Shown here: in pieces, positions 26,909 through 60,705 of the stretch
Numbering within the stretch: the stretch's first letter is position 1
Layout of the letters: the number at the start of each line of letters is the position of its first letter
NCBI GenBank assembly: GCA_026770705.1
Contig: JANJGN010000026.1
Coordinates: 39,184,001 to 39,248,000, forward strand
Direction: 5' to 3'
Source: Isurus oxyrinchus
Lineage: Eukaryota
Length of the DNA stretch: 64,000 bases
Position numbers and translations under genes: made by a program
Notes under the pieces: model-generated
Database searches by the model: none
The model's input: only the letters and a program-made list of their open reading frames with translations
What the model was told of the DNA's origin: nothing

Positions 26909-27321
26909 AGGCTCAGCCGCACAGTAATAAACTGCGGCATCGGCGTTCCCCGTGTCTACAATGAGCAATTGGCCGCGTTTCTCCAACTCGGAAAGATTCA
27001 GTTCAAATCGTCGACTTCGCCCTTTGCTATTCGATATCTGCCTTATAATCCACTCCAGTCCCTGACCGGATTTCTGTCTGTACCAATGCATCACGTAGAA
27101 TTCGGACAGCTCGGAGCTGCAGTCCATCTGCACCGAATCCCTGCTCTGGACTGTTTTCGAAGCGGGAGATTGAAGCACACGGTCCGAGAGACATCGACCT
27201 GGAAAAATATTCAGGGCATGAAACACTGGAACAGAGAGATCAATAATGAAAAACTCACTCTGGGTCATTGGGTCACTGTCCTGTGCCTACCAGTTCGCAT
27301 CGCCAAGATGACGGATAGCAT
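26909..27321 (-). CDS. Apparently intact TCR delta-type V segment (leader 27291-27321, V exon 26909-27198)
   Basis: Short leader MLSVILAMRT|GTAGGC. Open V exon GRCLSDRVLQSPASKTVQSRDSVQMDCSSELSEFYVMHWYRQKSGQGLEWIIRQ..DAAVYYCAAEP. RSS CACACTG-23-ACAAAAACC (26870-26908). CRE-like TACGTCAC at about 27458. Confidence 0.8.
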
Positions 27322-30110: not shown

Positions 30111-30160
30111 CACCACGTTCAGGTTTTTGTACAGCTGTCTCCGTGCTCTGTATCACTGTG

Positions 30161-30469
30161 CTGTGCGTTGACTCAGTGCACAGTAATACACAACGGAGTC
30201 GCTCAGTTGTAGTCTGGAGACAGTTAACCGGCTGATTTTCTCAGCAGGATCGATCGAAGCAGAAATTCTCCCTCCCACAGCGTTTTCTTTATTTTCTTCT
30301 CCTGCAGTGTGTCTCTGAAGCAGATAATCCGGAGCCTGGCCGGGAGACTGACGGTACCAGTGTACTGTGTACTGACAGAACCTGACCGAATATTCACATC
30401 TTAAAGTAATGGTGTCACCGGCAGGATACGTTTGTACAGGCGGATTCTGGGATATCATGGAACTGGAAT
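30161..30469 (-). CDS. NAR-TCR supporting TCR delta V, cassette 1 (leaderless, intact)
   Basis: Phase-1 acceptor CTCCAG|AT. Reads DSSSMISQNPPVQTYPAGDTITLRCEYSVRFCQYTVHWYRQSPGQAPDYLL..DSVVYYCALSQRT, with an extra Cys in CDR1. Consensus RSS CACAGTG-23-ACAAAAACC (30122-30160). Confidence 0.93.
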
Positions 30470-31899: not shown

Positions 31900-32420
31900 A
31901 TCAATATAAACAGGAGCCGCCATATCACTATTCAAATCTGCTCAGACATTCAGTAATATTCTGGCTGATTTACAACCTCAACGTCACATTCCCGCACTCT
32001 CCCCATATCCCTGATCCTTTTAGCGTCCAAAAACTTATCGAATATTGTCTTGAATGCACACAGGTTTTGAACACCCACCGCTCTCTGAGTTACACAATGC
32101 CACAGATTCACAGCAATGGCTCTACTGAAGATATTTTTTCCTTCTCAGTTCTAATGGATGATTCTTTATTCTGAAGCGGTGTCCCCGAGTTCTATATTCT
32201 TCAGTCTGGGGAAACTACGACCTAGAATTTGCCCTGTCGAGGCCCTTCAGTGTATCACATGTTTCCATGAGATCATCTCTCATTCTTCTAAACTCTAGGA
32301 AATATCAACCGAGAAGACTAAATCTCTTCCCATTGGACAATCCCTTCATATCAGGAATCAGTCGGATAAACATTTGCTGCACCAATTCTATTACAGATTG
32401 ATCTCTGTAAGGGGACCAAA
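31900..32420 (-). mobile_element. CR1-type LINE 3' fragment in the J-to-supporting-V intron
   Basis: Same fragment is present at about 51250-51725, so it predates the cassette duplication. Confidence 0.7.
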
Positions 32421-33351
32421 CCTTCACAGCATTCCGGAGTGGAGTCTATTTCAGTCCTTCCCTCCATAAACCTCACCCACCTGGGGGTCGGATTGTACTT
32501 TGAAAGGCGCCCAGAAATCATCCAATCCCTCTCTCCCTTTCGATTAATTTTGTCTTGCTGGTTCTAAATGAGCATTCTCCTAGTTTATAATTGTTTCCTT
32601 ATGTTTCTGTTCTCCTTCATAAGATTAATGCATCATCCTCATTCTCTCACTGCACTGCGTTGCCTTAATTCACAGTAATCTGTGATACAGATAAATTACA
32701 GCAATCCCATCTCTCAAATATTTCCATTCAATATAGAGAAGCGTCTGCAGTTTCAAACTTTCACATTTCGGACTCAGGACGGGAAAGGAGAAGAGTGATT
32801 GGTTCTGCGAAGACAATTGAAAGAAATGGGGGGGACAATGTCACTAATTGCAGTCACAGATTGTCCAATAATAAAATTCAACCTAGACTCATATCAGGGT
32901 CTCTTATAACTGAAGCCCATTGTGTCACTCGCCCGTTTCTTTCCCGGGTCAGGTATTGAACGAGCCGCTGCAGTTATCCGAATGGCCGCAGTTGTGTTGA
33001 GTTTATTCACCGGGTACATCATTCACATTGCGCGGCTCGGACTGCAATCTGCTGCCCAGGGGAGAGCTCTGTGACCCCGCTTCCGGGCTCTAAGGGACAG
33101 ACAGAGCTTCCTCGGTCACAGTTAACACCGGGAGTGGAGTCCGGATTGCCGACAATCTCAGCTCGTTAAAAGCGATTCAGAGTGTGCGAGTCCGTGATGT
33201 TGATGTTGTCCCCGATGTGCCCGTTAAACCAATAATGGTCCACATTCCGTCAACTCCCACATCCCCTCAAACTCCACTGATATCAATAATAAACTGACTG
33301 TGAACATTACACGGGACAGGCTGTAAGTCGGCGGAGTTTGGTGTTACTTAC

Positions 33352-33404
33352 CGGCTGTGACAGTCACCACTGTCCCCGATCCATCCCGATAGTCAGTAAC
33401 CCAC
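33352..33404 (-). CDS. NAR-TCR J segment, cassette 1
   Basis: RSS GGTTGTTGT-23-CACTGTG (33405-33443). Reads WVTDYRDGSGTVVTVTA + G|GTAAGT. Phase 1 matches the supporting-V acceptor. Confidence 0.92.
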
Positions 33405-33785
33405 CACAGTGACACCGCTCTCAGTCTCCCCTGTACAACAACCAGGACTTCTCACCCTGCCGGAAAATCATCATCCGACAGTAGAAACTGCCCAATTATT
33501 CAGTGGATTTATATAAATTAACAATATTCAACCTTTCAAAGTCTCTGTCGTTTCAAACTGTTCTTTGTGAGGTCCTGAGCTCCGAGTAAATGGTCCCTGG
33601 AACGAGATGTTCGCTTGATATAAACTGAGAAAAATATCAAAGAAATATAAATGAATGGTGGTAATTACAATGAAATGTAACCAGATTACAGCGAAAATAA
33701 CATCAACCCGACAATTCACTATCCGGGCCCAGAGAATTTATATTGCGATCGTGGAGAGGTATTTGCTCAGGTGTCTTCTACTGTG

Positions 33786-33802
33786 ACTTTCCCATCCATC
33801 CA
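33786..33802 (-). CDS. NAR-TCR D segment, cassette 1
   Basis: TGGATGGATGGGAAAGT flanked by GGGATTTTT-12-CACTGTG and CACAGTA-12-GCAAATACC. Confidence 0.85.
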
Positions 33803-34194
33803 CACAGTGTTACAAGTCAGTAAAAATCCCCCGGGTTCTTGGTGAAATTTGGGGACATTAGTTAAACAGCGGGCACTGCGGTTCCCGGTTGCAGCAGTTA
33901 GACCAGGATCACATCTGGTGTCAGGAGTTTGCAAATGGGATCAGTCATTCCCAATCCCCACTCACTGACACCAATCCCAGGAAAGACATCACCATCCGCT
34001 CACATTCGGCATTTAAAAAGCTCAAGCTATTAACGGCAATAATCCAATCTTATTATAAACTAGTCTGTGAGGCAGACGGTGTGAGGCGGAACTGTGGGGG
34101 GTTTAACTGCAGAATTAACTCCGATTTCTCATTTGTTTCTGTGATAATCTGCAGTGAGTTTTTGTACCGTGGGAAGCCAAGACCCATCACTGTG

Positions 34195-34664
34195 GATCTG
34201 TAGTACTGAGCTTTACAGTAATAGGTGGCGGTGTCTTCGACTCTCAATTCCCGAATTTCCAGCGAAAATGTCTTTTCTGCTTTATTCACCGACACAACAA
34301 ATCTCCCCCCGCTGGAGATCCGCTTCCGCTCTGTCCCGGTCTGGTTTTGCCTGAAGAAATATCCATTTTCTAAATAATAATAGTAACCATTTAAAACACA
34401 GGTGATGGTGAGAGACTGACACTCCTTCCTGGTCACCGCTGTCGGGATCTGTGTCACTGACTGACTGAAAGAGCCTGGAAATTAAACAGAGATAGTTTAA
34501 TGGACCATCAGAGCCGAACCTCAGAATGGGGTTAAAACCCCGGACAGTGTCGGTAATTGGGATGGACTCGGGCGGCTTTATATTAACTCCACACAATGTC
34601 GGTTTGTTGATCGGTACTCACGGGGTATGCAGACACACAGGATGAAAGCAAGGAGGATTCCCAT
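34195..34664 (-). CDS. NAR-TCR V (IgNAR-like), cassette 1 (leader 34622-34664, V exon 34195-34474)
   Basis: MGILLAFILCVCIP|RSFSQSVTQIPTAVTRKECQSLTITCVLNGYYYYLENGYFFRQNQTGTERKRISSGGRFVVSVNKAEKTFSLEIRELRVEDTATYYCKAQYYR. VNAR-type CDR2 deletion (ISxGGR..VN) and extra FR1 Cys. RSS CACAGTG-22-ACAAAAACT (34157-34194). Confidence 0.93.
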
Positions 34665-35519
34665 CGTTCTGCTGCCTGGAGCTAAGGGTTTATATGACAG
34701 GGAGCTGGAGACTGCAGCCCTGGACTGCACTGGGAGACCGGACCTCAGAGCTGGACTGAAATACTTTAGCGGGATCGAGTTTATTTGCACAGGACAGTTT
34801 CGCTGAGATCATTGATGGGTCGCACGATTCCCGGGTCGCTGTCTAAGTGTTGCGTGAATAAGAGACAGGTTTTTAAAAGGAGGCTGCAATTTTCTGACTA
34901 TTCATTTGGGCTGTGATCCGGATGTGAAAGCCCCTCCCACAACACTCTGGTGTACAGAGGTGGGGGATGGGAGCTTTTCTTTCCGCCAGTTGTGCTGCCG
35001 CCTTCCTTTCCCCACAGTGCTGAACTGGGAGGTCGGAGCATGTGTTTGTATTGGGTGGTGTTTGCCTGTGAGCCCAGGACACCGAGAGAAACCCCCGACT
35101 TGCTCTTATTGTAATATTCCGGAGATTTCCCCTGTCATTTAGCCAAATGGTTCCTGCACTAGCCCTGCGGTGGGTTACATGTTAAATGGTGCTTAATTTC
35201 AGCCACGTTTGACTTCCAAATTGGGAATATTCAGAATTTCTGTTTGCAGTCACTGAGAATGAATGAAACGACACTCGGGAGGACAATAGACATTCGGGGG
35301 GTGTCTTTAAAGATCACAGTCACTACCTTCTGTTCTGAAATCTGTTTATGGTGTATAATTATCTCTCAACCAGCAACAGCAACACTCAGTCTAATAAACC
35401 CCGTGACAAGGCCGATGTTCGAGGCTTCACAAAGCTGACAGCGGAGTTCGGGAAAATGCTGCTCAACATTGCGTACAGGGACGGAAAGGCCATTAAAGGG
35501 CGAAACGGAAATTAAGAAC

Positions 35520-35850
35520 CGCAGCACGTCGCACAAACATGGCCGACAGTACGTCACAAAAACACGAACAACAGTGCGTCACACAAACCGGGCCGACAGT
35601 TTCGTCACACAAACATGGCCGACAGTACGTCACACAAACATAGCCGACTGTACGTCACAAAAACATGATCGACAGTTTCGTCACACAAAGATGATCGACA
35701 TTACATCACACAAACCTGGCCGACAGCTTTGTCACAACAACATTGCCGACAGTACGTAACGCAAACATGGCCAATAGTACTTCATACAAACATGGCCAGC
35801 TGTACGTCACACAAACACGATCGACAGTACGTCTCACAAACATGGCCGAT
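35520..35850. repeat. 25-bp minisatellite, about 13 copies (cacacaaacatggccgacagtacgt)
   Basis: Directly visible tandem units. Only about 2 units are present at the paralogous site (55490-55545). Confidence 0.9.
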
Positions 35851-35959
35851 GATTTGAGATGCAATGTATAAAACCCACATTTTTTTCTGCACGTCCGGCC
35901 AATTGCTGTCAGCTTTGTTAACGTGATAAAGTGCTGCTTTGAGAATAATAATTAGTGTA

Positions 35960-36930
35960 AATCACTGTTAAGGTAAACATATAAATGTATAGTGCAAATA
36001 AGCATAGATAATATATGGCCAAGAATGGCATTAACAAAGGCACGGCCTCGTGTAACATAAATAGAAGCTGAGTCTATTTCAGTATTAACGGAAAAAAGGC
36101 CTGGAGTAAGGCAACTAGAAATTGGGTCTAGTGTAATGTAAACAAGAGTTTGGTTTAGACCCGAAATAACAAAGATAGGGCCTACCGAAATATAAACAAG
36201 ATCAAGGGTTATGAGATAATAGTTCAGACAGGTCTCTAGATAACATGACATGGTTTAATGTAATTTACACAGAGGCATAGGCTATTATAGTACTGTCGTA
36301 GTGCAAAATCAGCAGGATTATGGCCTAGTGCAATGTAAACTCAATCATGTCCTAGTGCAAAAGAGCATAGAAAATGGCCAGTGTAATATAAACCGAGACG
36401 GAGTCTCATTCAGTCGTAAATCAGGCAAGGCCTAGCGTCATACAAGCAGAGACATGTCAAATGCCGCAATAAAGGAGATGATGTCTCATGTACCTTAAAC
36501 AGAGACACAGGTTAATGTAATATAAAGAGTGAGATTCACTGGTGTAATACCGAGACAGGATATTGCTGAACACTAACAGAGTTCATCTATTGCAATAATA
36601 ACTGAGATTTGGCCTAGGGAAACATAGAAGGATATGCACCCTATTACAAATTAATGGAAAAAGGGACGAATGCAACATAAAGTGAGGTGTGGTCTAGTGT
36701 AGTTCGACTGAGGTAGTGCCTGGTGTAATATAAATATAAACATTAAGATATTGTAGTCAGTAATAACAAAAATTGTGCCTGGTGTAACATAAGTGGAGGC
36801 AAATCTAATGCAGTAATAGCAAAGACATCATTTAGTGTGACAGTCCAGTGCAGTAATAAATGAGGTGAGCTCTGGTTTAATATAAGCAGATGCATTGTAC
36901 AGTGCAGCAATAAATGATTATTGCTTAATT
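35960..36930. repeat. Old degenerate satellite, about 25-bp unit
   Basis: Periodic 'ggcctagtgtaatataaacagagac'-like motifs. Confidence 0.65.
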
Positions 36931-36974
36931 CTGGAATAATTGTGTACAACCAGGTACTGAGCTCATGTCATTTG

Positions 36975-37460
36975 TTTTCGCACCTATTTTGTGTCATCTG
37001 CAATCTTGACGATTGTACATTCACTTCCCTCATCTAAGGCATCAATATATGTTGTAAATAATTGAGGCCCCAACACTGCTCCCTGTGGCACCCCACTAGT
37101 TACAGGTTGCCATCCTGAAAATGCCCCCTTAACTCATCTCTCTGTCTTCTATTAGTTAGCCAATCCTTTATCCATGCTCATATACTACCCCCAACACCGT
37201 GGGCTCTTATCTTGTTAAGTAGCCATATGTGTAGTACCTTACCGAACGCATTTTGGAAATTCAAATACATTGCATCTACTGGTTCTCCTTTTTCAATGCT
37301 ACTTGTTACCTCACCAAAGAATTAGAATTAATTTGTCAAGCATACTGACTCTGCTTCATTAGACTATGTATTTCTAAAGGCTCTGCTATTGCATGATTTA
37401 TAATAGACACCAATATTTTCCCAAGGCCAGATGCTAAGCTAACTGGCTTGTTTTTCTACA
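36975..37460 (-). mobile_element. CR1-type RT fragment
   Basis: Minus strand encodes [26 protein letters not shown], typical of CR1 RT. Confidence 0.75.
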
Positions 37461-39012
37461 ATCCCCAATTCCTCTGTCAGGGCAGAAATGCAAACCCCAT
37501 CCCACTCGACCGCTGATCCAACCAATGTCAAAGCGGGAACAGCAGCAAGCACTTTTCCAAAGCACAGGAAAGGTAAGTAAGATCAGAGGAATAGAAACAA
37601 ACGAACTATGGGGTAGTGGCTGCACGCACCATTCTCTCACGTACAATCTGTCTATAATGAGCTGAATTCAAGGCTAATGCGCAAACAGAAATTATATAAT
37701 TCTGTCTTTCTATATGGACTGCGTTATGTTCATCTTCATTTCAAATCTTGGACAAACAGGCTCGCGACAGGAATTAGAGAATTGTTGTATTATTCTATAG
37801 TTACTGATACCTTCATAGTTGAAATCGGTTCAAACAGAGGACCGCATCTGTCAGTGGGGGACAGAACAAATCGGCATCCCATCCCAATGTACTGGAACTG
37901 GGCTACTGATTAACACTGAACTAAACTTCCCAATTATGAGTCTCCAAGAATATGTCATATTAATATACCGAATGCTGTCGTCAATGAGGCAGGATCCAGT
38001 GGATCCTAAACAGAGAAACAGTCTCGTATCTTCAAGCCAACGACAGAACCTGCAGTCATGTAACAGAGGCAGGCAGTGCAGTAATGAGTGAGAGGGAAAA
38101 GGAAAATGAAGTAAAGTGACATAATTCAGAACAGCAACAACTTAGACAGACTTCAGTGTTACAGAGGCAAAAGAATGGTGTTGTTCAGCAATAACTGACT
38201 GGCAGGAAACAAACAAAGATCTAGTTATTGCATTTAAAACTGAGACTGACCAAAGGGCAAACGTATTTGGGCAAAAAAAACTGCTCATGAGGCAAATGGA
38301 CTTGACCCCAAATCTCACCAGTCTCCCCTTAGAACAGATTGTGGAAGCATTGCCAGTATGGATGTGAGAGTCGATAATGTGGATGAACCTTCTACCTATT
38401 TTCCAAAGGACCAGCGAGTGGGACAGCGACTGTTGTTTCCCTGCAGGCGTGTGAATACACCCATTGAGTCCGAGTGGATTCAAGGAGCGGAATGGGATTT
38501 GGAAGCACAGATTGGATGACAGACAATTCCAAGGCTGGTCATTGGGAGAGGCCGGCTCCAGGCAGGGAGAAGGGCGATTTCTAAGTTTCCTCTGCCACCT
38601 GGTGGAGGAAATCAGAATTTCACCCCAGCAATTTCTCCTTCAATTCAGAAGGTGGGAGTTGCTCTTCAAAACCATTCAGATGGGCACTGCCCCGAAACGG
38701 CTGTGGTGGCAATTCAGTAGTCGCATGTAGTACAAGGCAAAGTGCAGTGTACAGGTCAGATTTCCAGGAGGTCTCCCAGCTAAAAGAATAGATACAGTAT
38801 CAGTGACAGTACCCTCTCCCACTGGGAGCAGAGTTCAATTCTTCTCCCTGCACATTCCAGATAGAGTTTTCCAGGATTTTTAACCTTTTATCTGTGTATC
38901 AGTTATTGTCTTCTTCGCATCCTACTAAGGTGATATTAATAAATGAACTACGTCATTGCAGCAGTTAGTAATTATGTCATTCCATTTACTGAGCCTGCCT
39001 CCTGTGATCTAG

Positions 39013-39475
39013 CTTTTTTTTGCCAAAATATACTTTAATCATAATATTTCTGAAGGAGTAGTGCAAAACATTTCAAAATGGGCTTCACAAAAAGTGCAAC
39101 CATATTTCAGTTTTCCACATAGATCATGAAGTGCTTCAATACAATCAATGAGCATTACAGACGTTTCAGCATGGTCAATACAGGCAGTCAGACAGCGGAA
39201 TGGTATTTAAGTTATCGACACATGTCGCATTGCACTCTGAGGTGCTTCAATGCAATTGTGATGCAAGTAGTGTTCACTGTATACATTCAGTGTGAGTCAT
39301 ACAGCCCGACGGGCCAATGCAATTCCAGGCCCCTCCGTGCACTATGGCTGAAAGAACTTAGACATTGACCTTTCCCCATTGCGCCTCAACGGCGACTCCC
39401 AAAATCTTTAGTGCATCCCTCAGCACGTAATCCTGGATATTGGAAAGTGCCAGTCTGCGACACTCGGTCTTGTTC
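39013..39475 (-). mobile_element. Tx1/L1-like LINE 3' end
   Basis: Minus-strand TECRRLALSNIQDYVLRDAL..AQWGK, followed by a 3' UTR and poly(A) (T-run at 39014). Confidence 0.7.
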
Positions 39476-39889
39476 GTACCTTGCTAAAGTGATTGGAATA
39501 AATGAACTAAGTCACGGAAGCAATTAGTAATTATGCCACTCCCTTTGACGTGTCTACTTCCTGTTATCTAGTCATAGTGCACAGTCGTTTCACGACTTTT
39601 ACCTCACTATACAATTATTATTTTCTCCCGCCTGTGTTTATCTATCCCTTCCTGACATAGACCCACACCATTTACCCCAGGCACTTCATATGTTACAGTT
39701 CCTGTGATCGAGTGCTGGTAATCCCCCCATTAGATTGAACGCGCACCCCCACACACACACCCACCCCGCACAACACAGACACGTACGCACAGACAGACAG
39801 GCACACACGCGCGCGCGCACACACACACAGATAAACAGACAAACGCACACACGGTGAGAACCACACACACATATACACACACTTTTCTG

Positions 39890-40255
39890 CAGCAGCTTAC
39901 CCCCTGCTGGACACTGCCGGAATCACACATACACCCGCACACGCACACACACACCTTCAGCGACTGCTGGACACTGCCATAATTTCACATACACACACTT
40001 GCGCACACACACACTTTTAGTAACCTACCCCCTGCTGGATATTGCCAGAATCACACACATGGGCACAAACACACACACAGCTTCACAATCTACCCTCTGC
40101 AGGAAACTGTCATAATCACATACAAACACGCAACTTTAGCAATCTGCCCTCTGCTGGACAGTGTCATAATCACACACACACACACACACACGCACACAAA
40201 CACACACATATCTTTAGCAATCTACCGTCTGCTGGATACTGTCATAATCACACAT
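39890..40255 (-). promoter_or_regulatory. Tandem array of about 6 CTCF-like motifs spaced by CA-rich DNA
   Basis: CCAGCAG(A/G)GGG(C/T)AG-type cores on the minus strand at about 39897, 39960 (partial), 40025, 40090, 40144 and 40222. Confidence 0.6.
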
Positions 40256-42040
40256 ACACACGCTCACACATCTTTATTTGTTTGTTAATAATGCTTTATT
40301 TTTATGATTTAGTGTCACTTTAAATGAAATATATAAAAATGCAATGTCCACAATCTTTACAATTGTGTTCGGGTGACGTCTCTCCACAGTAAGATAAATG
40401 AAAAATAAACCATTCCAGGGACGAAATACCGAGTTTGATAAATGCGACAAAGCAATTTTACCCAAATATACCGGCAGGTGGCGGGCTCGCCCCATTAGAA
40501 ATACCCGCACAGGCAGCGGAGAGGAATAATACTCAGTGACCATCAGAAGAACGATCCACTTAATCACCTGAAGGAAAACCTAAAGTTGTCGTGTCTGTTT
40601 GCCTATAAAAAAACAAAATGCAAACTAGACGAATCCCGAAAAGAACTAACATGCTAACATACGAAATAGGAGCAGGAGTAGGCCACTCGGCCCTTCGAGC
40701 CTGCTCTGCCATTCAATAAATTCATGGATGATCTGACTGTAATCTGAACAGCACATTCCCGCCTACCTCCGTTTCACATCCTTGGTTATCAAGAATATAT
40801 CTAGTTCTGCCTTAAAAATATTCAAAGGCTCCGCTTTCAGCGCCTTTTGAGGAAGAAAGTTCCACAACAGCCGGTGGAAAAAGAGTCTTTGAATATTTTA
40901 AAGGCAGAGCTAGATAGATTCTTGATTAACAAGGGTGTGAATGGTTACGGGGTACTGAGAAATAAATATTAATTGAACTGGGTAAAGGGGGAGAAAGAGT
41001 TCAGAATTCAGATGCAGAAAGTGTGGAGCGTGCTGCTGATAAAGAGTTAAAGAATCGCATTTAATTGAGTGGGACGCGGATTATTAAGCTCAGAAACAAG
41101 AATAAAGCTGCACACATCATTGCTGAGGGCACAGTTTAAACTCTTGGGTCGTTTTTGTGACCCTTCTTTCGTTTGGTGTTAACCTGGAAGTCAGTGTGTA
41201 GGATGGATTGTGAAAGATGTCGCCGGGATGAGAGGGGATAGTCCTGAGCAGAAACTTGAGCAACTGAAGATCTTTCCACCAGAACACAGAATATTAAGAA
41301 GTGGACTGACTGACTTGTACCCAATCATGGAAGGTTTGGAAAAGGTTAAAAAGAGAGTGAATCAGTGGGTAACTGGATGGCATCATTGAAGTTTCCCACT
41401 ATTGTAGTGGAGGGAGAGATTTGAAGATGTTTTTGTGTTTTGAGCACTGGACTGTTAGAGGATGTTATGGCCCATGAGAAACAGAGATGAAAACAAAATA
41501 TTAAGTATTTTTAAAAGACGAATAGTTCATTGTTTGACCAGTAAAATGAATTTTTAAGAAGTCAAAATATACGAATGGTGGACAGATGATTCAGAATAAG
41601 TGTATAACTCTATATGCCAACCAGCACACATGGGTAATGGCCCGAACTTGCTCTCTTTGTGTTGTGAGCTGACGACTGGCTCTTTTCAGTTATAAAGAGA
41701 ACAGAGCACAGACATTATGAAACAATATAACATGGTGCTACATAAAGGAAGCAGAGAGGTTCGGAAACAGTGACAATTCAAGTGGTCTAAGTTTTGAGAA
41801 ACCTCCAATCACTAACTGGCACCATGAGTAACTTCATATGACAACATCCCATAATTGCCCAATCGATGAGAATGTCGCCCATCAGTCTCACATTCAAGAG
41901 GAGAATGTAAAGCTCTCCCGTCTCCTCTCCACTTCCCCACCATCTTGGACTCGGCAGCAAGTCCCAGTCTACAAATCAGGCCCTGATTGCTTCGCCTTTT
42001 GTCAAGTTTCATCGTCATAAACAGAAACTTCGGCAAAGAC

Positions 42041-42396
42041 CTGATTCCAGTTGGAGCCCTGTTGCTGTTGACATTGTGTGAGTTTATTTACATCATCAGA
42101 TGCATTCTTTTTTACTAATCTCTCAGTACCCCGTGGTGGCTCAGTGGTTTTTCTTTTGTTCAGAGCCATTCAGTGTGAGGATCAAGGCTGTCGGCTCTCC
42201 GTTGGCTCAGGTTATACCGTAGCCTGGTACCGACAAACACTGACAGGGTCTGCGACATTTATCACCTCCATTATCCAGGAGAATGTGACCAAAGGACGCT
42301 ACACATTAACCTTTGACCGAGCAAAGAGGTCCAATACCATCTCTATAGATGATACCGTAGACCAGGACGCTGGAATTTATCACTACTGGAAGAAGA
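42041..42396 (+). pseudogene. Divergent V pseudogene (inverted orientation)
   Basis: Leader has ATG replaced by CTG (LIPVGALLLLTL|GTGAGT). V reads AIQCEDQ[FR1 deleted]GCRLSVGSGYTVAWYRQ..DAGIYHYWKK. RSS CACAGTG-23-ACAATATCT (42397-42435). Confidence 0.85.
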
Positions 42397-42764
42397 CACA
42401 GTGGGACAAAGAGCGGATCTGGCTGTACAATATCTTGTTCACTGCTGTGTCTCCGCTGCAGCTTTAATCTTTCCCCAAACAAGGACCTTTAGAAATGCTG
42501 GCGATGTTCAGAAACACTACTTTCCCATGTTTTAATTTTTATCTGGATGAAGTTATAACATCCTACCGCTCCTACTACAGATACAGAGCATCGAAAAGTA
42601 CTAAATAAAATTTCTGATGTTCGTTTGTTCAACGTAAAGAGATACACAGAAAAAATAACACCGCCTCTCAGATACATGGACAGTAGATATGCGAGAGAAA
42701 GATTGATAAATGATGAGAAAAATAGACATAAATAGAGAGGAATGTGGATAGACAGACAGGCAGA

Positions 42765-42766
42765 TT

Positions 42767-42832
<66 letters not shown>
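42765..42832. repeat. (GATA)n microsatellite
   Basis: Directly visible. Confidence 0.95.
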
Positions 42833-42833
<1 letters not shown>

Positions 42834-42910
42834 TAGTATATTCTGCCAATATCGGCAAACGCTTTATCCTTGCATGTATAACTAAGCTGATGTTACTAAT
42901 GTTTTCACAG

Positions 42911-43191
42911 TTGTTCCTTGTCACTGGAAGACATTTCAGATATCGATGTATCGGGGAACTGTCGGACAAACTATTTCGCTTCATCACCGTGCTACATTCG
43001 CTGTAAATGATCTTGTATTCTGGTACCAGCAATTCTCCAATCAAGCTCCCTAGTATCTCGTTTCCACATACAGAGATCAAAGCGTTAAGGGAAGGTTTAA
43101 AATATTTGTGGACCGTGAGAAAAGCTCCACCAGTCTCACTGTTAACACAGCTGAGCTGTCAGACGCTGCGATGTATTACAGTATGGTGAGG
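42911..43191 (+). pseudogene. TCR delta-like V pseudogene (inverted orientation)
   Basis: VGQTISLHHRATFAVNDLVFWYQQFSNQAP*YLV..ELSDAAMYYSMVR. Both Cys are lost and there is an in-frame stop. RSS CACGGTG-23-AAAATAACT (43192-43230). Confidence 0.88.
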
Positions 43192-46100
43192 CACGGTGAA
43201 GCAAAGAGACAAAGAGCCTGTAAAATAACTCGCTCGACATGGAGACTTAGGAGACAACAAGTCCATTGGCTTTGGAAGTGAGTGTGATTGAAGGAAACCC
43301 GCTTTAAAAATGCAAAGTTCATCATGCGAATAAATTACTGCCATAAAAATATATTTTATTATTTCTACTCGTAGAAAAATACTCTGACACATTCGCTTAT
43401 TGAAATTTGGTTGACATTCTTATTTTATGATTAGGGAGCTCTGAAGCCACTCATTAGAGATTGACAATCCAACCTCATCGGTTGTGGATTTACGAATTTA
43501 TTAATGAGAAGTTCATCTGTGTGTGCAAATTACATGTACTGTACTAATGATGTAGGGATGCCAGAAAACCGAGACAAATAATCCTGCAAATAATGAGAAA
43601 TAGCAAATGTAGCAAAAGTAAAACAATGAAAAATAGAATCAGATGCAGTAGTAATAAAATCTGAGCAAAAAAACATAATAATATGCCATAATAATTATCC
43701 AGCAATATCATGCAGCAATATTCAAGAATAAATTGAGAATTGTTGTTTCACGGATAAGATTCCACTAGATAGTTGTTCAAGTCCTTTTCTGTGTCGACAG
43801 CTGACAGAGCCTTCAATTCACCGCTGGACAGGTAGGATTACGGCTCGGCACAGTGCCTGACTCTCAAGTCAACAGCGGTTTCAACTTATCATCCAGCTTC
43901 CCGGATGTAGGGTTGGCACTCCAGCCCCTCCTACACGCAGATCCTTTTTATTCATTCGTTCACTGGATTTAGGCGACATTGGAGCAACAGCATTTATTGT
44001 CCATCACTAATTTGCTTTCAGATGGGGTGGCGAGCCGCCACTTACCGACTGAGTGGTTTTCTGGGTCATTTAAGAAGGCGGTTAATGTTCAACCACATTG
44101 CTGTGGATTTGGAATCATACATGGGCCGGAGTAGATTTCCTTCCCTGAAGGATGTTACTAAACCGGTTAGAGTTTATTGCGATGATCCTGATCACTATTC
44201 CTACAATACTATAACTTTATTCCAAAGTTATTTATTATCTCCATTTAAATTAATTAGTAGAATTGGAACTCATATCCCTGGGTCATTGGCTCAGGCCTCT
44301 GGATCTTTAACCCAGTGACATAAGCATGAGATTCCGTTAGAAGAACATAACCTGGTTCCCATGAAAGTTCTATGTTAAACTGTACATTCCTTTGCTCAGC
44401 CTCAACGATTTTTCTGCAAACACGTCTGACCTCAGTTATCTACAGGGGTTTTTGTCACGTATGAAACAAAAGAACGTTTCCTTCTTCCTTCAAGCAGCTC
44501 TGGCCAGATAAAATGTTTCAGAACACAGCGTAGCAAAACCGTCCATTAGAACAAAGTAATGGCGTCTCAGTAAGACTCACTCCAGAAGTAAATATTAACC
44601 TGGTTTTCTCATGAAAGTGACAAAGAACTGAAACATAATTAATTCTGTTATCTTATTCGGTAAATATAATGATTGACCTTGTAATTAAAAACATTTGACA
44701 CCAGTGATTCTTCTCATCAGATCTCCACATTGATTTTTAGACTGCATTTAGTTCATAACTTCATGGCTTCCATTATGATGGCAAACCCACAATGAGACAA
44801 ATGAAAGGACAATTTTAACGCTGAATGGGAAATAATAATTGACGGGCGTAATGTAAGGGAGGCAAACTCAAAGGGAAGATTACTATTGTGGCTATGCCAC
44901 TAAACTATTAATTCAGTAGCCTGGGTAAATGTTTCAGGGACATCAAACATAAAAGTCAGGAGCAGTTAGGTTTTCCGGCCCCTCGAGCCTGCTTCACCAT
45001 TCAATAAGATCATGGTTGATCTGACTATGGCCTCAATTCCACATTCCCACCTGCCCCCGATATCCTTTGACTCCCATGGGGCAGGAACCGTTTTTGGGCC
45101 GCATCCAATGAATGGCCTGTTTTACACTCGGTCCGATTTCTACTCCTCTGATGTCAATGGGACAGAGAACTGGATCGAGTATAAAACTGGCAGCCAGCTT
45201 GCTTAACAGCACAAGGCCAATTTCACCCCTCAACCATTTCAAGCAGAAGATAATGATAATGCAGCTCATTCCACATCCCCCCAGTATTGTATTTCACCTG
45301 AAAACAATGGAACCATTATTCAAAGCAGGTATAACACCGGCTATTACACTCGCATTTTTAGACTAACATAAAATTAAAAATCTACCCAAAGTTGGTATCG
45401 TTGGAAATGTATTCTCAAATTCTCACTAGTAGAAGAATAACAGTGAATGAAAGGTTTCGTAAAAGTTACCAGAATATTACTTTTTAGAAATCAATCTAGC
45501 GACCTGAGCATGGGTATGGTGTAAAGGAATATATGGAGAGTATTGGGTGTTTCAGAGACTTAATTATGAATGCTTGAGTTGAAAAGAAAGAAATATTTAA
45601 ACGATGGAAAGTTAGTGTACCCCTAAGCAAATGAGTTCAAACAAATACCTGGAAATGACTATGTCACATTGTTAATTATCAATGACAGAACCAGCTTCAT
45701 AAAACAGTGATTTGTCCAATTGATGATTTAGTCCAAAGATTTACCCGGAACTCCAATAGCAGCAAATATTGGACAGTAAATAGCATAAACTACGCCAGAT
45801 ATTCGGCAGTGCATTTTCTATGAGAAGCGATGGTCTCTGCTGGTGACATTTGGTCACAGAGATTCTATGTTACAAGCTCAAACAGACCCTCATTTGTACT
45901 ATAGGAATTCTACAGAGAGACAATTAGCTTCTATAATTATTTACAGTTACTTGAAGAAATAGATTCAGCAATTATTTCCCATGTTCTTTTTGGGAGGTGG
46001 TAGAATGTTGGTACACACTTGGGAGACGACTATCGAGTCTTGAAGTCTCATGTAGCCCAATGTCGTTTTGAATGTGATTTGTTAATATTTGGGCAGATCT

Positions 46101-46489
46101 AAAGCAGCCTTAGTCATGTGGAACGTTCATTTATGGGAGACACTACAAGAAACATTTCTAGCCATTAGACCGAAGCCAACATAGCTCAGTGACATGAGAC
46201 CAGGCGAGAATCAGAATGACAGTGAGTGTCAAATGCTGCCGAATGTACTGACATGATGGAAGTTAAACTTAGAGACAACACATAGGGTCCCCACAAAGTG
46301 CAAGTTACACCCATACAATGCAAGTCATACCCACACAATACAAGTTATGCCAGCATTAGCCAACGAATATCTACACAACAGAAAGTGTAATCTCACAACA
46401 ACCACGTTTAACATATGTTCATAACATTTTTAAAATTTTAATATGTTACAAAACGCCTCACACGGGGGCTGTAAAACAAAATTGAGATA

Positions 46490-47400
46490 AAGTCACAGAA
46501 TCACAGAGCGCAGAAGAGGCCCTTCGGCCCATCGAGTCTGCACCGACACGTGAGAAACACCTGACCTACCTACCTAATACCATTTACCAGCACTTGGCCC
46601 ATAGCCTTGAATGTTAAGACGTGCCAAGTGCTCATACAGGTACTTTTTAAAGGATGTGAGGCAACCCGCATCCACCACCCTTCCAGGCAGCGCATTCCAG
46701 ACCGCCACCACCCTCCAGGTAAAAAGGTTTTTCCTCACATCCCCCTAAACCTCCTGCCCCTCACCTTGAACTTATGTCCCCTCGTGACTAACCCTTCAAC
46801 TAAAGGGAATAGCTGCTCCCTATCCAATCTGTCCATGCCCCTCATAATCTTGTACACCTCGATCAGGTCGCCCCTCAGTCTTCTCTGCTGCAATGAAAAC
46901 AACCCAACTCTATCCAACCTCTCTTCATAACTTAAATGTTTCATCACAGGCAGCATCCTGGTGAATATCCTCTGCACCCCCTCCGGTGCAATCACATCCT
47001 TCCTAACTGCACACAGTACTCCAGTTGTGGCCTCACCAAGGTTCTATAGAACTCCAACATGACCTCCCTACCTCTAGAATCTGTGCCTCGATTGATAAAG
47101 GCAAGTGTCCCATATGCCTTTTTCGCCATCCAACTAACATGCCGCTCCACCTTCAGAGATCTGTGGACACACACGCCAATGTCCCTTTGATCCTCAGAAA
47201 TTCCTAGTGTCATGCCGTTCATTGAATACTTCCTTGTCAAGTTACTCCTTCCAAAGTGCATCACTTCACACTTTTCATGGTTAAATTCCATCTGCCACTT
47301 ATCTGCCCATTTGACCATCCCGTCTATATCTTCCTGTAGCCCAAGACACTCAACCTCACTGTTAACCACCCGGCCAATCTTTGTGTCATCCGCATCTTAC
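46490..47400 (-). mobile_element. CR1-type LINE 3' end (relatively young)
   Basis: WADKWQMEFNHEKCEVMHFG..LVRPQLEYCVQ..RLRGDLIEVYKIM..TRGH, the CR1 RT C-terminal region. Confidence 0.9.
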
Positions 47401-48110
47401 TAATCCTAACTCCCACATAAGCCATATGTCACAATAGAAAATATTAAGATGTTTTTGTACCAGCCCTAGGCTCCTTGATTATGACGTTAAGCTCTTTCTC
47501 TGTGAATGTTTTAATGGATTCCCATTATTAGCCAATTACACCTTGGTTATTACACTAGGCTCTGTCTCTGTTAGCATTTACCAGGCCCTAATTATTATTG
47601 TAGTCCCAAGTCCACGTGTTTTGCTTTATGAGGATACAGGGATAAGCAAGATCTGGACTGTGTTTACTACTACAAGATTACATTGAATTAATGGCATGTA
47701 CTCCTAGGAAACTGTTGTTTCTACTTTACGCATTGACTGTACGAAATCATTTTTAGATATTGAAATTAAACAATTGATGTTTAGCCACCTTGCTGAATCA
47801 AATGTATCAAAAATGTCACTTTCTTCCGATCCATGTTTCAACCACTAATCACTCCTCTTAAATATTAAAACTTAGCGAAACAGCTGGAGAGGTACAGGGC
47901 CCCTTTAAGAACTGCGGTTTGACCCTTTTTCCAAGGTCCGGGTGAAGAGTTACACGATTTACAGCTGGGTGTTTTAATGCTGGGCGGACTCTGAAGATAC
48001 TCCGTAACCTCCTGACCCCGAATCAATAGGAGAAAGAGCCAATCATGGTGCTGTTTGTCCTGAGCCATTGAGTTCCGGCGGCCAGGTTTCTGTTACCCAC
48101 TGTCGGCCCT

Positions 48111-48145
<35 letters not shown>

Positions 48146-49279
48146 ACATAGCAGGCTGTGCATATTTGATTTGTATGCGGGTACGAAGACTCGATTTATA
48201 CGAAAAGTGACTTCAAAAATAAACATTCGGTCTTAATGGACAAAAGCGATGGATTTGTACAGGCGCCAATGTGCGGAAAATTCTTGCAGAGTGCCGCCCA
48301 CACTCCCTGTGTCATATATAGTGAGCTTTCCCAGCCGCAGTGAACTGTTGGAGCCTCTGCCTTCCACGACCCATTCACCAAGGAAGCGAATCGAAACTCA
48401 ACCTCCTGTTCTTCCTCTCTACCCTTCTACCAAATGGAAACAGTTTATTTTGCTCTAAAATAAATCTAATAATCCAGTTCTGTTGAAGGGTCATGAGGAC
48501 TGGAAACGTCAACTCTTTTCTTCTCCACCGATGCTGCCAGACCTGCTGAGTTTTTCCAGGTAATTCTGTTTTTATTTTTTGTTTTGATCTACTTGGCTCA
48601 GAGACACATGGTTTTGAACACTCGATCAGATCTACCCTGCACCTTCCATTCTCTATGGAGAACAAACCCAGTTTCCCCAATCTATCTAATTAACTGAAGT
48701 TCTGCATCCCTGGGACGATTCTGGTCAACTTCCCTGCCACTTTTCTAAACCCTTCACATCCTTCCTAAAGTGCGATTCCCGGAAGTGGACACAATGCTCC
48801 AGTTGAGGGGGAACCAGTGCTTTCCTAAGAGGATCAGTAGCATTTCCTTTCCTTTGGACTCCATGCCGCTGAAACCGATGATCCCGGATGTTTAAGCGCC
48901 ACTTTCTCAGGCTGTCAGGCCACCTTCAACCATTTATGCCCAAATAGAGCATATCGTTTGTTGAAGAACGGATAATTGAATGAATTATTTTAGCAGGAGT
49001 ATTGTAGGCGACTCGATTTATAAAAATACTTAAGGCTCTAAGGAGCCAGAAGGAATGTGCGAACTTGATGGGTTTAATGGCTTTTTGCTGTGCTAGAACA
49101 TTATAAACTCAATTGTAAATACATTCGTGGAGATTAGGTGATTCCCCCCACCCCACCCTCCCCCCACCCCCTTCTATGTGTGTGCCTGTGTGTATATATG
49201 TGTTTGTGTATATGTATTTGTGTGTATACCTGTGTTTGTGTGTATGTGTGTGCTCCTTTCAACTTAATCCCGAAAATGA

Positions 49280-49437
49280 ACAATTTGGACTCTTTCCGTG
49301 CCTTGTATCACGGTGTGTCTGTAATCCCATTATGTTCAAGTTTTTGTACGGCTCTCTCCGTGCTCTGTATCACTGTGTCTGTATTCCCACCATGTTCAGG
49401 TTTTTGTATAGCTCTATCCGTGCTCTGTATCACTGTG
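49280..49437 (-). other. Triplicated 23-RSS behind supporting V 2
   Basis: CACAGTG-23-ACAAAAACC (49399-49437), CACAGTG-23-ACAAAAACT (49339-49377), and CACCGTG with a decayed nonamer (heptamer 49309-49315). Confidence 0.88.
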
Positions 49438-49743
49438 CTGTGCGCCGACTCAGTGCACAGTAATACACAGCGGAGTCGCTCAGTTGGAGTTTGGGGATAT
49501 CTAACTGGCTGATTTTCTCGGCAGAATCGATAGAAGCAGAAATTCTTCCCCCTGCAGCGTTTTCTTTATTCTCCTCTCCTGAAGTGTGCCTCTGAAGCAG
49601 ATATTCCGGAGCCTGTCCGGGGGACTGACGGTACCAGTGTACTGTGTACTGACAGATACCTGAGTATTCACAGTTTAAAGTAACGGTGTCACCGGCAGGA
49701 GCGGTTTGTAGAGGCGGATCCCGGGAAATTACGGAACTGGAAT
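49438..49743 (-). CDS. NAR-TCR supporting TCR delta V, cassette 2 (leaderless, intact)
   Basis: DSSSVISRDPPLQTAPAGDTVTLNCEYSGICQYTVHWYRQSPGQAPEYLLQRHTSGEENKENAAGGRISASIDSAEKISQLDIPKLQLSDSAVYYCALSRRT. CDR1 Cys present. Not in the supplied ORF track. Confidence 0.93.
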
Positions 49744-51249
49744 CTGGAGGATAGAAAAATGAACATTTTATTTTTGTTAAGCCTCTGTTTGTCCAGGTGA
49801 ATTCAATCGCGTGAATAGCTCTGCTTTTTGCAGTAATTTTATTTGCTAGAAGCCTGTTTGAACCGTGTTCACTGTTATTGAAATATGATCAAATAGGGAA
49901 TGAGGTGATATTTTAGTTTACATGGCGAAATCTTGCGAAGGGGACTGCACTGTCTGAATTGGTGGTGGGAACAGCTTCCATAGTAACTTTCAAACGGGTA
50001 ATGGGTCTGTGCTGGAAATGTAAATACAAATATAGAGCGATGGAGAAAATTCATGGACAGTGGGAAAAATTGGATTGCACTTTTAAAGGGTCAGCACCTA
50101 CACAAGGGGCCGAATGTCATCATTCCGTAGATAATTCTATGAATTATATTACATTCCCGTTTCTATTTTCCTTGGTGAGACACAAACACGAGGGAGCATT
50201 TTATGCTCAGCGAGGCAACCAGTTTCCAAAAAAAAAATGTTTGTTGCAGAGAAACACAGCTGTGTGACATCACTGAGCACAGCAAGATCCAACACAAACT
50301 GATGGGCATCATCAGCACCGATTTGGCAAAACAAAGAGTGAGAACCAGTGGTCAAAGGTCAATCATTTACTGCGCTTTTAACTACTCCGGGATTTCTCTC
50401 TGCCTTTTGCTGTATTTCTCTGTTCTATCAATAGGGTCGTATTTTCTCCAGTTCAGCTTAATTTCAAATATGTGCAATTAATTTAATCTTATTTCTTTAA
50501 TTTCACATTCCCTTTATTTCACATTTTCTTTGTGCTGTTTGCGCTTATTGCAATCGTGGGAACTTGCCCCAAAGTCTCTCAGTTGTCGGTTGGGTTCAGT
50601 CTGTTCAGTTTCCGCAGTGGTTTGACTGTTACTCACTGGGAACTGCCTCTTCCGGCTCTCTGACAATTTCAATTCTTTCCGCACACTGACTGATTCTCTC
50701 ACGGGTTCACTGGGTGGAGTTTTCCCTCAATTTTACATTGTCGGGGAAGAAGAATGCGGAAGAGGAATGGACTATTCAGCCTGTGTATATAATCAATTCC
50801 AGCCGCACCCCACCAAAAATCTAATTGGCCATTTACATCCAGTTCCCTGTGCTGGTCTATTCCGTTCTCCCTCCTGTGTTTTCAAGTGTTCCAATAAATA
50901 TATCAATACTTTCCCCATACACTCCCTGAGGCAGTAAGTTCCACATTCTGATCTGCCTTTGTTTAAATTCATTTGTCTTAAAATGTTTTATTTGTTCTGT
51001 TAGTTACTGTCATATGTTGACGGCTATTGCTTTGGGCTCAACCACAAATGACCAATTTATCCACATTAAAACCGTTCAGTATTGAAAGAATTTCTATGGA
51101 TTCTCTTTGTGGTTCTTTTTTCCAGAAAAAAGACACCCAGCCCGTTCAATCTTCCCAGAGAGATGTGGATTGTTGCTGATTTCTTGTTTCATCAAATAGA
51201 GAATGGAATCAACAGAAGAAGGAGCCGCCAGATCACCTTTCAAACCTGC

Positions 51250-52670: not shown

Positions 52671-52728
52671 CGGCTGTGACAGCCACCACTGTCCCGGATC
52701 CATCCGCATGATCATATTTATAAACCAC
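52671..52728 (-). CDS. NAR-TCR J segment, cassette 2
   Basis: RSS AGTTGTTGT-23-CACTGTG (52729-52767). Reads VVYKYDHADGSGTVVAVTA + G|GTAAGT. Confidence 0.92.
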
Positions 52729-53110
52729 CACAGTGGCACCGCTCTCAGTCTCCCAGGTACAACAACTACCGACACCTCAGCCTGCCGGGAAATCATCATC
52801 AGACAGTAGAAACTGTCCAATTATTCAGCGGATTTATATAAGCAAACAATATTCAATCTTTCAAAGTCTCTGTCAATTCAAACTGTTCTTTGTGAGGCCC
52901 TGAGCTCTGAGTAAATAGTCCCGGAAACGAGATGCTCGCTTTATATAAACCGGGAAAAATATGAAAGAAAGATAACTGAATGTTGGAAATTGCAATTAAA
53001 TGTCACCAGATTACAGCAATAATAACATCAGCCCGATAATTCACTATCCGGACCAGGAGTATTTATATTGTGATCGTACAGAGGTATTTGCTCAGGTCTC
53101 TGCCACTGTG

Positions 53111-53128
53111 ACTTCCCCTTACCCCATG
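53111..53128 (-). CDS. NAR-TCR D segment, cassette 2
   Basis: CATGGGGTAAGGGGAAGT. 3' RSS CACAGTG-12-GCAAATACC; weaker 5' 12-RSS at 53129-53156. Confidence 0.83.
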
Positions 53129-53516
53129 CACTGTGCTACAATTCAGTATAAGATCCTCCGGGCGTTTGTTGAGATTTGGGGACATCAGTTAAACAGCGGG
53201 TGCTGCGGTTCCCGGTTCCAGGTGTTGGACCAGGATCACATCTGGTGTTAGGGGTTTGTAACTGGGATCAAACATTCCCAATCCCCATTCACTGACACCA
53301 GTCCCAGGAAAGACATCATCCGCTCACACTCGGCATTTATAAAAGTCAAGATGCTAACAGCAATAATCCAATCGCCTTATAAACTAGACTGTGAGGCAGA
53401 CGGTGTGAGGCGGAACTTTGGGGGTTAAACTGCAGATTAACTCCGCTATTTCATTTGTTTCTGTGATAATCTGCAGTGAGTTTTTGTATCGCGGGATGCC
53501 GAGGCCCATCGCTGTG

Positions 53517-53994
53517 TGTCGTACTGGTACTGAGCTTTACAGTAATAGGTGGCGGTGTCTTCAACTCTCACATCCCGAATTTCCAGCGAAAATGTCTTTT
53601 CTGCTTTATTCACCGACACAATAAACCTCCCCCCGCTGGAGATCCGCTCCCACTCTGTCCCGGTCTGGGTTTGTCTGAAGAAATCCCCGCCGGTCAAAGG
53701 ACGAGCGAAAAAACCACCATAGAAAACACAGTTGATGGTGAGAGACTGACACTCCTTCCTGGTCACCGCTGCCGGGGTCTGTACCACTGACTGACTGAAA
53801 GAGTCTGGAAATTAAACAGAGATAGTTTAATGGACCATCAGAGCCGAACCACAGAACGGGGTTAAACCCCAGGCAGTGTCTGTAATCGGGATGGACTCGG
53901 GCAGCTTTATATTAAATCCACACAATGTCGGTTTGTTTGATCGGTACTCACGAGGTAAACAGACACACAGGGTGAAAATAAGGAGGATTCCCAT
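53517..53994 (-). CDS. NAR-TCR V (IgNAR-like), cassette 2 (leader 53952-53994, V exon 53517-53804)
   Basis: MGILLIFTLCVCLP|HSFSQSVVQTPAAVTRKECQSLTINCVFYGGFFARPLTGGDFFRQTQTGTEWERISSGGRFIVSVNKAEKTFSLEIRDVRVEDTATYYCKAQYQYD. RSS CACAGCG-22-ACAAAAACT (53479-53516). Confidence 0.93.
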
Positions 53995-60580: not shown

Positions 60581-60705
60581 ACTCAGCACACAGTTATACA
60601 TGGCGCTGTCAGGGAGCTGCAGCACAGTCAAGGCGAAATCAGCTATATTATTGGGTGTTTCGAGAATTTTCCAGTTAACCGTGGAAACAGAATGAACAAC
60701 AGGAA
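60581..60705 (-). pseudogene. 3' part of a TCR V pseudogene, cut by the gap
   Basis: ADFALTVLQLPDSAMYNCVLS, then CCTAGTG-23-ACCATGACC (60542-60580). Confidence 0.7.

What the first reader, a model, noticed from the sequence alone, without database searches (positions are those of the whole stretch)
33803..49437. RSS geometry permits cross-cassette joins, including a three-V-domain TCR
Seen: the 23-RSS of supporting V 2 (49399-49437) faces the 5' 12-RSS of cassette-1 D (33803-33830) in deletional orientation. By the 12/23 rule, supporting V 2 could join D1-J1, whose donor splices in phase to supporting V 1. That would give NARV2-D2-J2 / SV2-D1-J1 / SV1-Ddelta-Jdelta-Cdelta. NARV2-D1-J1 shuffling, conventional upstream Vs entering a cassette, and NAR V joining directly to Ddelta are also legal. 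I know of no report of stacked three-V chains; this is inference from geometry only.
Basis: inference. Interest (0 to 1): 0.75.

Follow-up and report, generated by a model that had tools for sequence, protein, structure and literature searches.

The report
Two tandem shark NAR-TCR cassettes
This is a shark T-cell receptor region with two duplicated NAR-TCR gene cassettes whose signals would allow a join between cassettes, but such joins are likely rare by-products and the proposed three-domain receptor is untested.

Summary
The geometry is as described. A perfect 23-RSS after supporting V2 (49399-49437, - strand) faces the 5' 12-RSS of D1 (33803-33830; 3 nonamer mismatches). The join would delete 15,635 bp, D1 is open in all frames, and all splice sites are phase 1. 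But this follows automatically from tandem NAR-TCR cassettes, a known kind: all 44 12/23 pairs in the window are legal, and the J1-to-SV1 splice is the normal one. D-delta, J-delta and C-delta are not in the window. Against a three-V chain: NAR V1 lies 392 bp from the same D; a same-strand array of CTCF-like motifs lies between the cassettes; SV2 lacks the cysteine that would pair with SV1; shark IgH clusters rearrange internally; and 0 of 80 homologous proteins with a supporting V show it joined to a NAR-type J. Only 3 of the 80 look rearranged, so that test is weak. For it: the distance is short, SV2's RSS is strong, and long-range joins occur in shark thymocytes. A functional three-V chain is not excluded (about 7%). 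Verdict: a new member of a known kind carrying a cheap, testable hypothesis.

The parts
53952..53994 (-). NAR V2 leader exon (MGILLIFTLCVCLP, phase-1 donor)
53517..53804 (-). NAR V2 exon, open; A-B loop Cys, no Trp in the WYRK position
53479..53516 (-). NAR V2 RSS, 22-bp spacer, heptamer CACAGCG
53129..53156 (+). D2 5' 12-RSS, weak (1 heptamer + 3 nonamer mismatches)
53111..53128 (-). D2 (18 bp; a stop in one of three frames)
53083..53110 (-). D2 3' 12-RSS
52729..52767 (+). J2 23-RSS
52671..52728 (-). NAR-type J2 (DGSG motif, phase-1 donor)
49438..49743 (-). Supporting V2 exon, open, no leader found, Cys in CDR1
49399..49437 (-). Supporting V2 23-RSS, perfect consensus
49339..49377 (-). Second 23-RSS in a 60-bp tandem repeat (2.5 copies, 49290-49441); its use would keep an in-frame TGA
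42920..43230 (+). Inverted V pseudogene (stop codon, no second Cys, degenerate RSS); ends approximate
42160..42435 (+). Inverted V pseudogene (no second Cys) with a 23-RSS at 42397-42435; start approximate
39885..40260 (-). Tandem array of about six CTCF-like motifs, all pointing towards cassette 1; candidate insulator (function inferred)
38592..38605 (-). Single CTCF-like site, no mismatch to the core pattern, 6 of 10 to the published upstream motif
34622..34664 (-). NAR V1 leader exon (MGILLAFILCVCIP)
34195..34474 (-). NAR V1 exon, open
34157..34194 (-). NAR V1 RSS, 22-bp spacer; native partner of D1 (392-bp deletion)
33803..33830 (+). D1 5' 12-RSS (consensus heptamer, 3 nonamer mismatches)
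33786..33802 (-). D1 (17 bp, open in all three frames)
33758..33785 (-). D1 3' 12-RSS
33405..33443 (+). J1 23-RSS
33352..33404 (-). NAR-type J1 (DGSG motif, phase-1 donor GTAAGT)
30161..30469 (-). Supporting V1 exon, open, no leader found, Cys in CDR1
30122..30160 (-). Supporting V1 23-RSS, perfect consensus

Best explanation
The window holds two duplicated NAR-TCR cassettes (leader, NAR V, D, J, leaderless supporting V), and each NAR V-D-J likely assembles within its own cassette, so cross-cassette joins would be rare by-products and a three-V chain is unlikely to be a working receptor. Shown: anatomy, RSS types, distances, frames, splice phases. Inferred: RAG joins each NAR V to the D about 390 bp away and each D to the J about 380 bp away; the supporting V separately joins downstream delta D/J segments outside the window; splicing J to the next supporting V stacks two V domains on C-delta. 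Inferred limits on the SV2-to-D1 join: a competitor 40 times nearer, a weak D1 nonamer, a CTCF-like array in between, the need for three in-frame junctions, and poor folding or pairing of the product.
For: Cassettes are 5.1-kb duplicates, 85% identical. The four internal joins delete 381-392 bp; cross-cassette joins delete 15.6-19.7 kb. Legality alone is unselective: 44 of 44 pairs. Of 161 proteins fetched, 80 hold a strong supporting-V match; 0 of 80 have it followed by a NAR-type J and 0 of 80 have two. In the 3 chains that look rearranged (P0042, P0069, P0081) the parts match the same germline cassette types: NAR V and SV of P0042 both rank P0067/P0045 on top; those of P0069 both have P0025 and P0053 in their top three; J and SV of P0081 both rank P0071 first. 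The putative interdomain Cys pair is conserved as NAR V A-B loop (66 of 69) with SV CDR1 (66 of 68), while only 4 of 68 SVs have any Cys before the canonical one and SV2 has none, so SV1's CDR1 Cys would be unpaired under SV2. CTCF-like cores: 8 with at most 1 mismatch against 0.51 expected; an array of about six, same strand, lies between SV2 and NAR V1. In mouse Igh and Tcra/d such sites restrict V access (PMC12310595, passages). Shark IgH: 97 partial rearrangements were within the minilocus with one possible exception (PMC2435157, passages), and joins were intra- rather than intercluster in Heterodontus (PMC2191167, abstract passage). Platypus TCR-mu transcripts appear to come from segments in clusters (PMC7615758, passage).
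Against: The protein test is weak: 77 of the 80 are gene models or contig ORFs that cannot show somatic joins, and J-to-SV matching reflects splicing, so only 2 chains test recombination. The IgH miniloci lie at least 120 kb apart, far more than 15.6 kb. SV2 must itself reach a D more than 49 kb away, passing D1 and the CTCF-like array, so neither can be an absolute barrier. SV2's RSS is a perfect consensus while NAR V1's has a 22-bp spacer and one mismatch. In shark thymocytes many IgH loci are partly rearranged in any order, including V-DDJ intermediates with a free D 5' RSS, and IgH V to D-delta trans-rearrangements are described as common (PMC12227049, passage). The CTCF core pattern was recalled, the array copies are not independent, and binding is untested.
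Confidence: 0.68

Rival explanations
1. Mixed-cassette two-V chains are a regular part of the repertoire. NAR V2 joins D1-J1, or NAR V2-D2 joins J1, deleting SV2 and giving NAR V2 on SV1; three-V chains are still purged.
For: Both joins are legal deletions of 19.7 kb; all phases match; the product keeps the NAR V / SV cysteine pair, so it would face no folding penalty; the cassettes lie much closer than IgH miniloci.
Against: Native partners are 50 times nearer; the 2 informative rearranged-like chains are cassette-congruent; the CTCF-like array lies between; NAR V2's heptamer has a mismatch.
Confidence: 0.2
2. One reading: NAR V2-D2-J2 / SV2-D1-J1 / SV1-D-delta-J-delta / C-delta reaches the surface with TCR-gamma.
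For: Legal deletional pair, perfect SV2 RSS, D1 open in three frames, native phase-1 splice; deletion of NAR V1 leaves one leader; shark thymocytes are permissive for recombination.
Against: 0 of 80 proteins show the order (weak). It needs three in-frame junctions (1 in 27 against 1 in 9) and SV2 must beat NAR V1. SV1's CDR1 Cys has no partner in SV2. SV2 keeps the paired-type WYRQ framework and would sit without a gamma V partner (sequence; consequence inferred). The published form has two V domains.
Confidence: 0.07
3. If three V domains are ever stacked, it is by splicing rather than by an SV-to-D join: J2 skips the unrearranged SV2 and splices to the rearranged NAR V1 exon, giving NAR V2 / NAR V1 / SV1.
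For: J donors and NAR V acceptors are all phase 1. It needs only cassette-internal joins. Two RefSeq models have a NAR V-J / NAR V-J / SV order: P0005 (Carcharodon) and P0009 (Heterodontus).
Against: Both are computed gene models and their first NAR V is truncated. The skip spans 18 kb with 13 AATAAA sites on the sense strand between SV2 and NAR V1. The SV2 acceptor lies first.
Confidence: 0.05

Closest known systems
NAR-TCR (doubly rearranging TCR-delta of cartilaginous fish; Criscitiello, Saltis and Flajnik 2006, seen only through citing papers PMC1845163, PMC12227049, PMC6795676, PMC5931798, PMC3457774)
   Same: NAR V with leader, A-B loop Cys and no Trp in WYRK; own D and J; leaderless supporting V with CDR1 Cys; two separate rearrangements. 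Supporting V2 is 83-91% identical to the top Carcharodon and Cetorhinus matches.
   Different: Nothing in the germline anatomy. The proposed third V domain is not part of the described receptor.
Shark IgH miniloci (V-D-D-J-C; PMC2435157, PMC2191167)
   Same: Segments about 400 bp apart with IgH-type RSS logic; intercluster joins are legal by geometry yet reported as essentially absent.
   Different: Miniloci are at least 120 kb apart and each has its own C; here cassettes are 19 kb apart inside a TCR V array and share downstream D-J-C.
TCR-mu of marsupials and platypus (PMC3457774, PMC7615758)
   Same: Two V domains stacked by splicing; tandem clusters; both V domains rearrange in platypus.
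   Different: Independent origin; each cluster has its own C; the supporting V is germline-joined (marsupials) or lacks D (platypus).
Mouse IGCR1 / 3'CBE array (Igh) and INT1-INT2 (Tcra/d) (PMC12310595)
   Same: CTCF-type sites between V segments and a D-J target; a tandem array of such sites.
   Different: Here the sites are motif matches only; no binding, looping or conservation data.

Membership tests
NAR-TCR | N-terminal NAR-type V with leader, A-B loop Cys and no Trp in the WYRK motif (PMC1845163) | tested here: met
   Leaders found 147 bp upstream of both NAR V exons; KECQS and YFFRQ/DFFRQ in the translations.
NAR-TCR | Supporting TCR-delta V without leader, with CDR1 Cys | tested here: met
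   No leader-like exon in either J-to-SV intron by a simple scan that found the leaders of 3 of 4 control Vs; CQYT Cys in SV1 and SV2.
NAR-TCR | Separate RSS set for NAR V-D-J and for the supporting V | tested here: met
   V-22 / 12-D-12 / 23-J, then SV-23, in both cassettes.
NAR-TCR | Linked D-delta, J-delta and C-delta downstream | not testable with these tools
   Not in the window; no whole genome is held.
NAR-TCR | Expression as a doubly rearranged chain in this animal | tested here: inconclusive
   No informative transcript data (see Tried and rejected).
Proposed three-V TCR-delta | Legal deletional 12/23 pair, open frames, in-phase splices | tested here: met
Proposed three-V TCR-delta | A supporting V joined to a NAR-type J in an expressed sequence | tested here: inconclusive
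   0 of 80 proteins, of which only 3 look rearranged.
Proposed three-V TCR-delta | Cys partner for SV1's CDR1 Cys in the domain stacked on it | tested here: not met
   SV2 has no Cys before the canonical one; 4 of 68 SVs have one, against 66 of 69 NAR Vs.
CTCF insulator array | Core motif matches above chance, with upstream motif at the published spacing | tested here: inconclusive
   Core enriched. Upstream motif CTGCAGTTCC (PMC12885311): 3 of 28 sites score 6 of 10 (background 2.2%); the five array units with a core match score 6, 5, 4, 4, 4.
CTCF insulator array | CTCF/cohesin binding and an effect on recombination | not testable with these tools
   Needs ChIP and contact data.

The most novel reading that the evidence does not exclude
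Tandem NAR-TCR cassettes let shark thymocytes join an upstream supporting V to the next cassette's D-J and put a triply rearranged, three-V TCR-delta chain on the cell surface, with a CTCF array setting how often it happens.
Probability: 0.07. Interest if true: 0.78.

Novelty: new member of a known kind. Interest (0 to 1): 0.3.

Why it matters
If true, it would be an antigen receptor chain with three somatically rearranged V domains, and it would show that NAR-TCR cassettes are combinatorial rather than fixed units. One library search for 'three V domains' with TCR, shark and NAR gave 0 papers; the main NAR-TCR papers were not available, so this does not show that it is unreported. If false, the locus still poses a clear question: how does a TCR V array with IgH-type D segments scattered through it keep upstream Vs from being trapped by them? 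The weak D 5' nonamers and the CTCF-like array are concrete candidates to test.

Tried and rejected
RNA evidence: no RNA holder listed for 33300-34700. Four of the five listed runs were laid as contigs on 30100-50000; cover was dominated by repeats, and none of the 15 joints shown (23 more not shown) linked SV2 to D1/J1 or showed even the native joins, so the call is uninformative either way. No whole genome is held, so further cassettes and D-delta/J-delta/C-delta could not be mapped. A third protein search seeded with the rearranged-like chains found no further ones among the 120 listed of 756. AlphaFold2 model of the two-V chain P0042: mean pLDDT 82, but no coordinates were available to measure the Cys-Cys distance, so it is not used. 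Literature: PMC1458790 (Criscitiello 2006) and PMC7909615 (Ott 2021) are not held; I did not look up Deiss 2019 (recalled as describing the nurse shark locus); these may already report cassette pairing. The supplement of PMC3964593 gave 0 hits for three terms; PMC10322711 has no NAR passage; PMC2275272 passages held nothing on inter-cassette joins; one search returned off-topic papers. The first upstream-motif test used a register read from the same sites, is circular, and was replaced. Three look-ups of earlier findings returned nothing. Rejected readings: that the RSSs are chance matches; that SV2 or cassette 1 is a pseudogene (frames, splice sites and RSSs intact); that RefSeq multi-V models prove stacked chains (they are computed models).
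Full report
What is there. The window is part of a shark TCR alpha/delta V array read on the - strand. The closest proteins are from Carcharodon and Cetorhinus (supporting V2 83-91% identical in the top matches). It holds two cassettes, 5.1 kb long and 85% identical, each with leader, NAR V, 22-RSS, 12-RSS, D, 12-RSS, 23-RSS, J, a 3-kb intron, a supporting V (SV) and a 23-RSS. All four V exons are open V-set domains. The NAR Vs have leaders; a simple scan found none in either J-to-SV intron. These features match the NAR-TCR description quoted in PMC1845163 (passages). Between the cassettes lie two inverted V pseudogenes. No FGxG J, delta D or constant exon lies in the window, and no genome is held.

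The observation. It is correct. SV2's 23-RSS (49399-49437) is a perfect consensus and faces D1's 5' 12-RSS (33803-33830), which has a consensus heptamer and 3 nonamer mismatches (the consensus is recalled). The join would delete 15,635 bp. D1 is open in all frames, and all J donors and V acceptors are phase 1. The RSSs exceed chance: 8 near-perfect ones against 0 in 30 simulations.

Why the geometry alone says little. Eleven 23-type and four 12-type RSSs give 44 legal pairs: 9 deletions, 22 inversions and 13 that would excise the coding ends as a circle. Four of the nine deletions are the cassette-internal joins (381-392 bp). Any V upstream of a cassette faces that cassette's D in the same way. 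The J1-to-SV1 splice is the ordinary one.

Tests on related proteins. Three searches left 161 proteins. Of these, 80 carry a strong SV match; none has the SV followed by a NAR-type J and none has two SVs. This is weak: most are gene models built on germline DNA, and only P0042, P0069 and P0081 look rearranged, with long junctions running into a delta-type constant region. In these three, the parts rank the same germline cassette types on top; only two include a NAR V and so test recombination. The cysteine pair thought to link the two domains is conserved as NAR V A-B loop (66 of 69) and SV CDR1 (66 of 68); only 4 of 68 SVs have a cysteine before the canonical one, and SV2 has none. Under SV2, SV1's CDR1 cysteine would be free. 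NAR-type Js have Asp in place of the Phe/Trp of FGxG in 61 of 69 cases, which fits an unpaired domain, whereas SV2 keeps the WYRQ framework of a paired V; that it would fold or traffic poorly without a gamma partner is inference.

A candidate barrier. CTCF-like cores (pattern recalled) are enriched: 28 matches with up to 2 mismatches against 7.85 expected and 8 with up to 1 against 0.51. About six units form a same-strand tandem array at 39.9-40.2 kb, with a further exact site at 38592, all between SV2 and NAR V1 and pointing towards cassette 1. Against the upstream motif printed in PMC12885311 (passages), 3 of 28 sites score 6 of 10 at the published spacing, where the background is 2.2%; the array units score 4 to 6. 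In mouse, IGCR1, a ten-site 3' array and INT1-INT2 restrict V access (PMC12310595, passages). The array copies are not independent, binding is untested, and SV2 must cross the same sites to reach delta D, so this can only be a dampener.

Literature. In nurse shark IgH, segments lie about 400 bp apart and 97 partial rearrangements stayed within the minilocus with one possible exception, but the miniloci are at least 120 kb apart (PMC2435157, passages). Heterodontus joins were intra- rather than intercluster (PMC2191167, abstract passage). On the other side, shark thymocytes carry many partly rearranged IgH loci, including V-DDJ intermediates, and IgH V to D-delta trans-rearrangements are called common (PMC12227049, passage). 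Passages of PMC6795676, PMC5931798, PMC3457774 and PMC7615758 describe NAR-TCR and TCR-mu as two-V chains. One search for 'three V domains' with TCR, shark and NAR found 0 papers. The primary NAR-TCR papers were not held, so I cannot say whether mixed pairings were reported there.

Most likely working. Each NAR V-D-J is assembled locally, the SV separately joins downstream delta segments, and splicing stacks two V domains (0.68). Low-level cross-cassette joins probably occur in DNA, since 15.6 kb is short and SV2's RSS is strong, but a three-V chain needs SV2 to beat a partner 40 times nearer, three in-frame junctions (1 in 27 against 1 in 9) and survival of an unpaired cysteine and interface. 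Mixed two-V chains have no such folding cost and are the more plausible cross-cassette product (0.2). A functional three-V chain gets 0.07. A splicing route to NAR V / NAR V / SV, hinted at only by two computed gene models with truncated first domains (P0005, P0009), gets 0.05. These odds are my judgement, not a computed result.

Verdict. The anatomy is a new member of a known kind. The three-V idea is coherent and cheap to test, but rests on geometry shared by any tandem NAR-TCR locus. Interest 0.3.

Noticed in passing
window 49290-49441: The 23-RSS after supporting V2 is in a 60-bp tandem repeat (2.5 copies); use of the second RSS would keep an in-frame stop. Read-through tails of homologues show RSS-like echoes at 20-residue spacing (five in P0049, two in P0045), so such arrays may be shared among sharks. 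Supporting V1 has a single RSS.
   Followed up: partly
window 39885-40260 and 38592-38605: Same-strand array of CTCF-like motifs separated by TG-rich spacers between the two cassettes; candidate insulator.
   Followed up: partly
window 59331-59344 and 2505-2518: CTCF-like sites just 3' of the degenerate RSSs of two V pseudogenes, pointing downstream; resembles V-associated CTCF sites in mouse Igh (recalled).
   Followed up: no
window 34157-34194 and 53479-53516: Both NAR V RSSs have 22-bp spacers while supporting and conventional Vs have 23; both D 5' RSSs have 3 nonamer mismatches. A possible basis for partner bias.
   Followed up: no
P0005 and P0009 (RefSeq XP_041031384.1, XP_067869961.1): Gene models with NAR V-J / NAR V-J / supporting V order in Carcharodon and Heterodontus; may reflect NAR V-D-J units lacking their own supporting V, or model artefacts.
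   Followed up: partly
window 35522-35849: 25-bp unit repeated 13 times about 850 bp upstream of the NAR V1 leader; the tandem-repeat scan lists no such array upstream of cassette 2.
   Followed up: no
window 26870-27200: An apparently intact conventional V with a 23-RSS 3 kb downstream of supporting V1; the simple leader scan did not find its leader.
   Followed up: no
window 600-13000, 42000-43300, 59300-60700: Many V pseudogenes in both orientations, several keeping good 23-RSSs (1228, 12242, 42397).
   Followed up: partly
window 16692-16864 and 60706-60852: Two N gaps; the second cuts a V segment.
   Followed up: no
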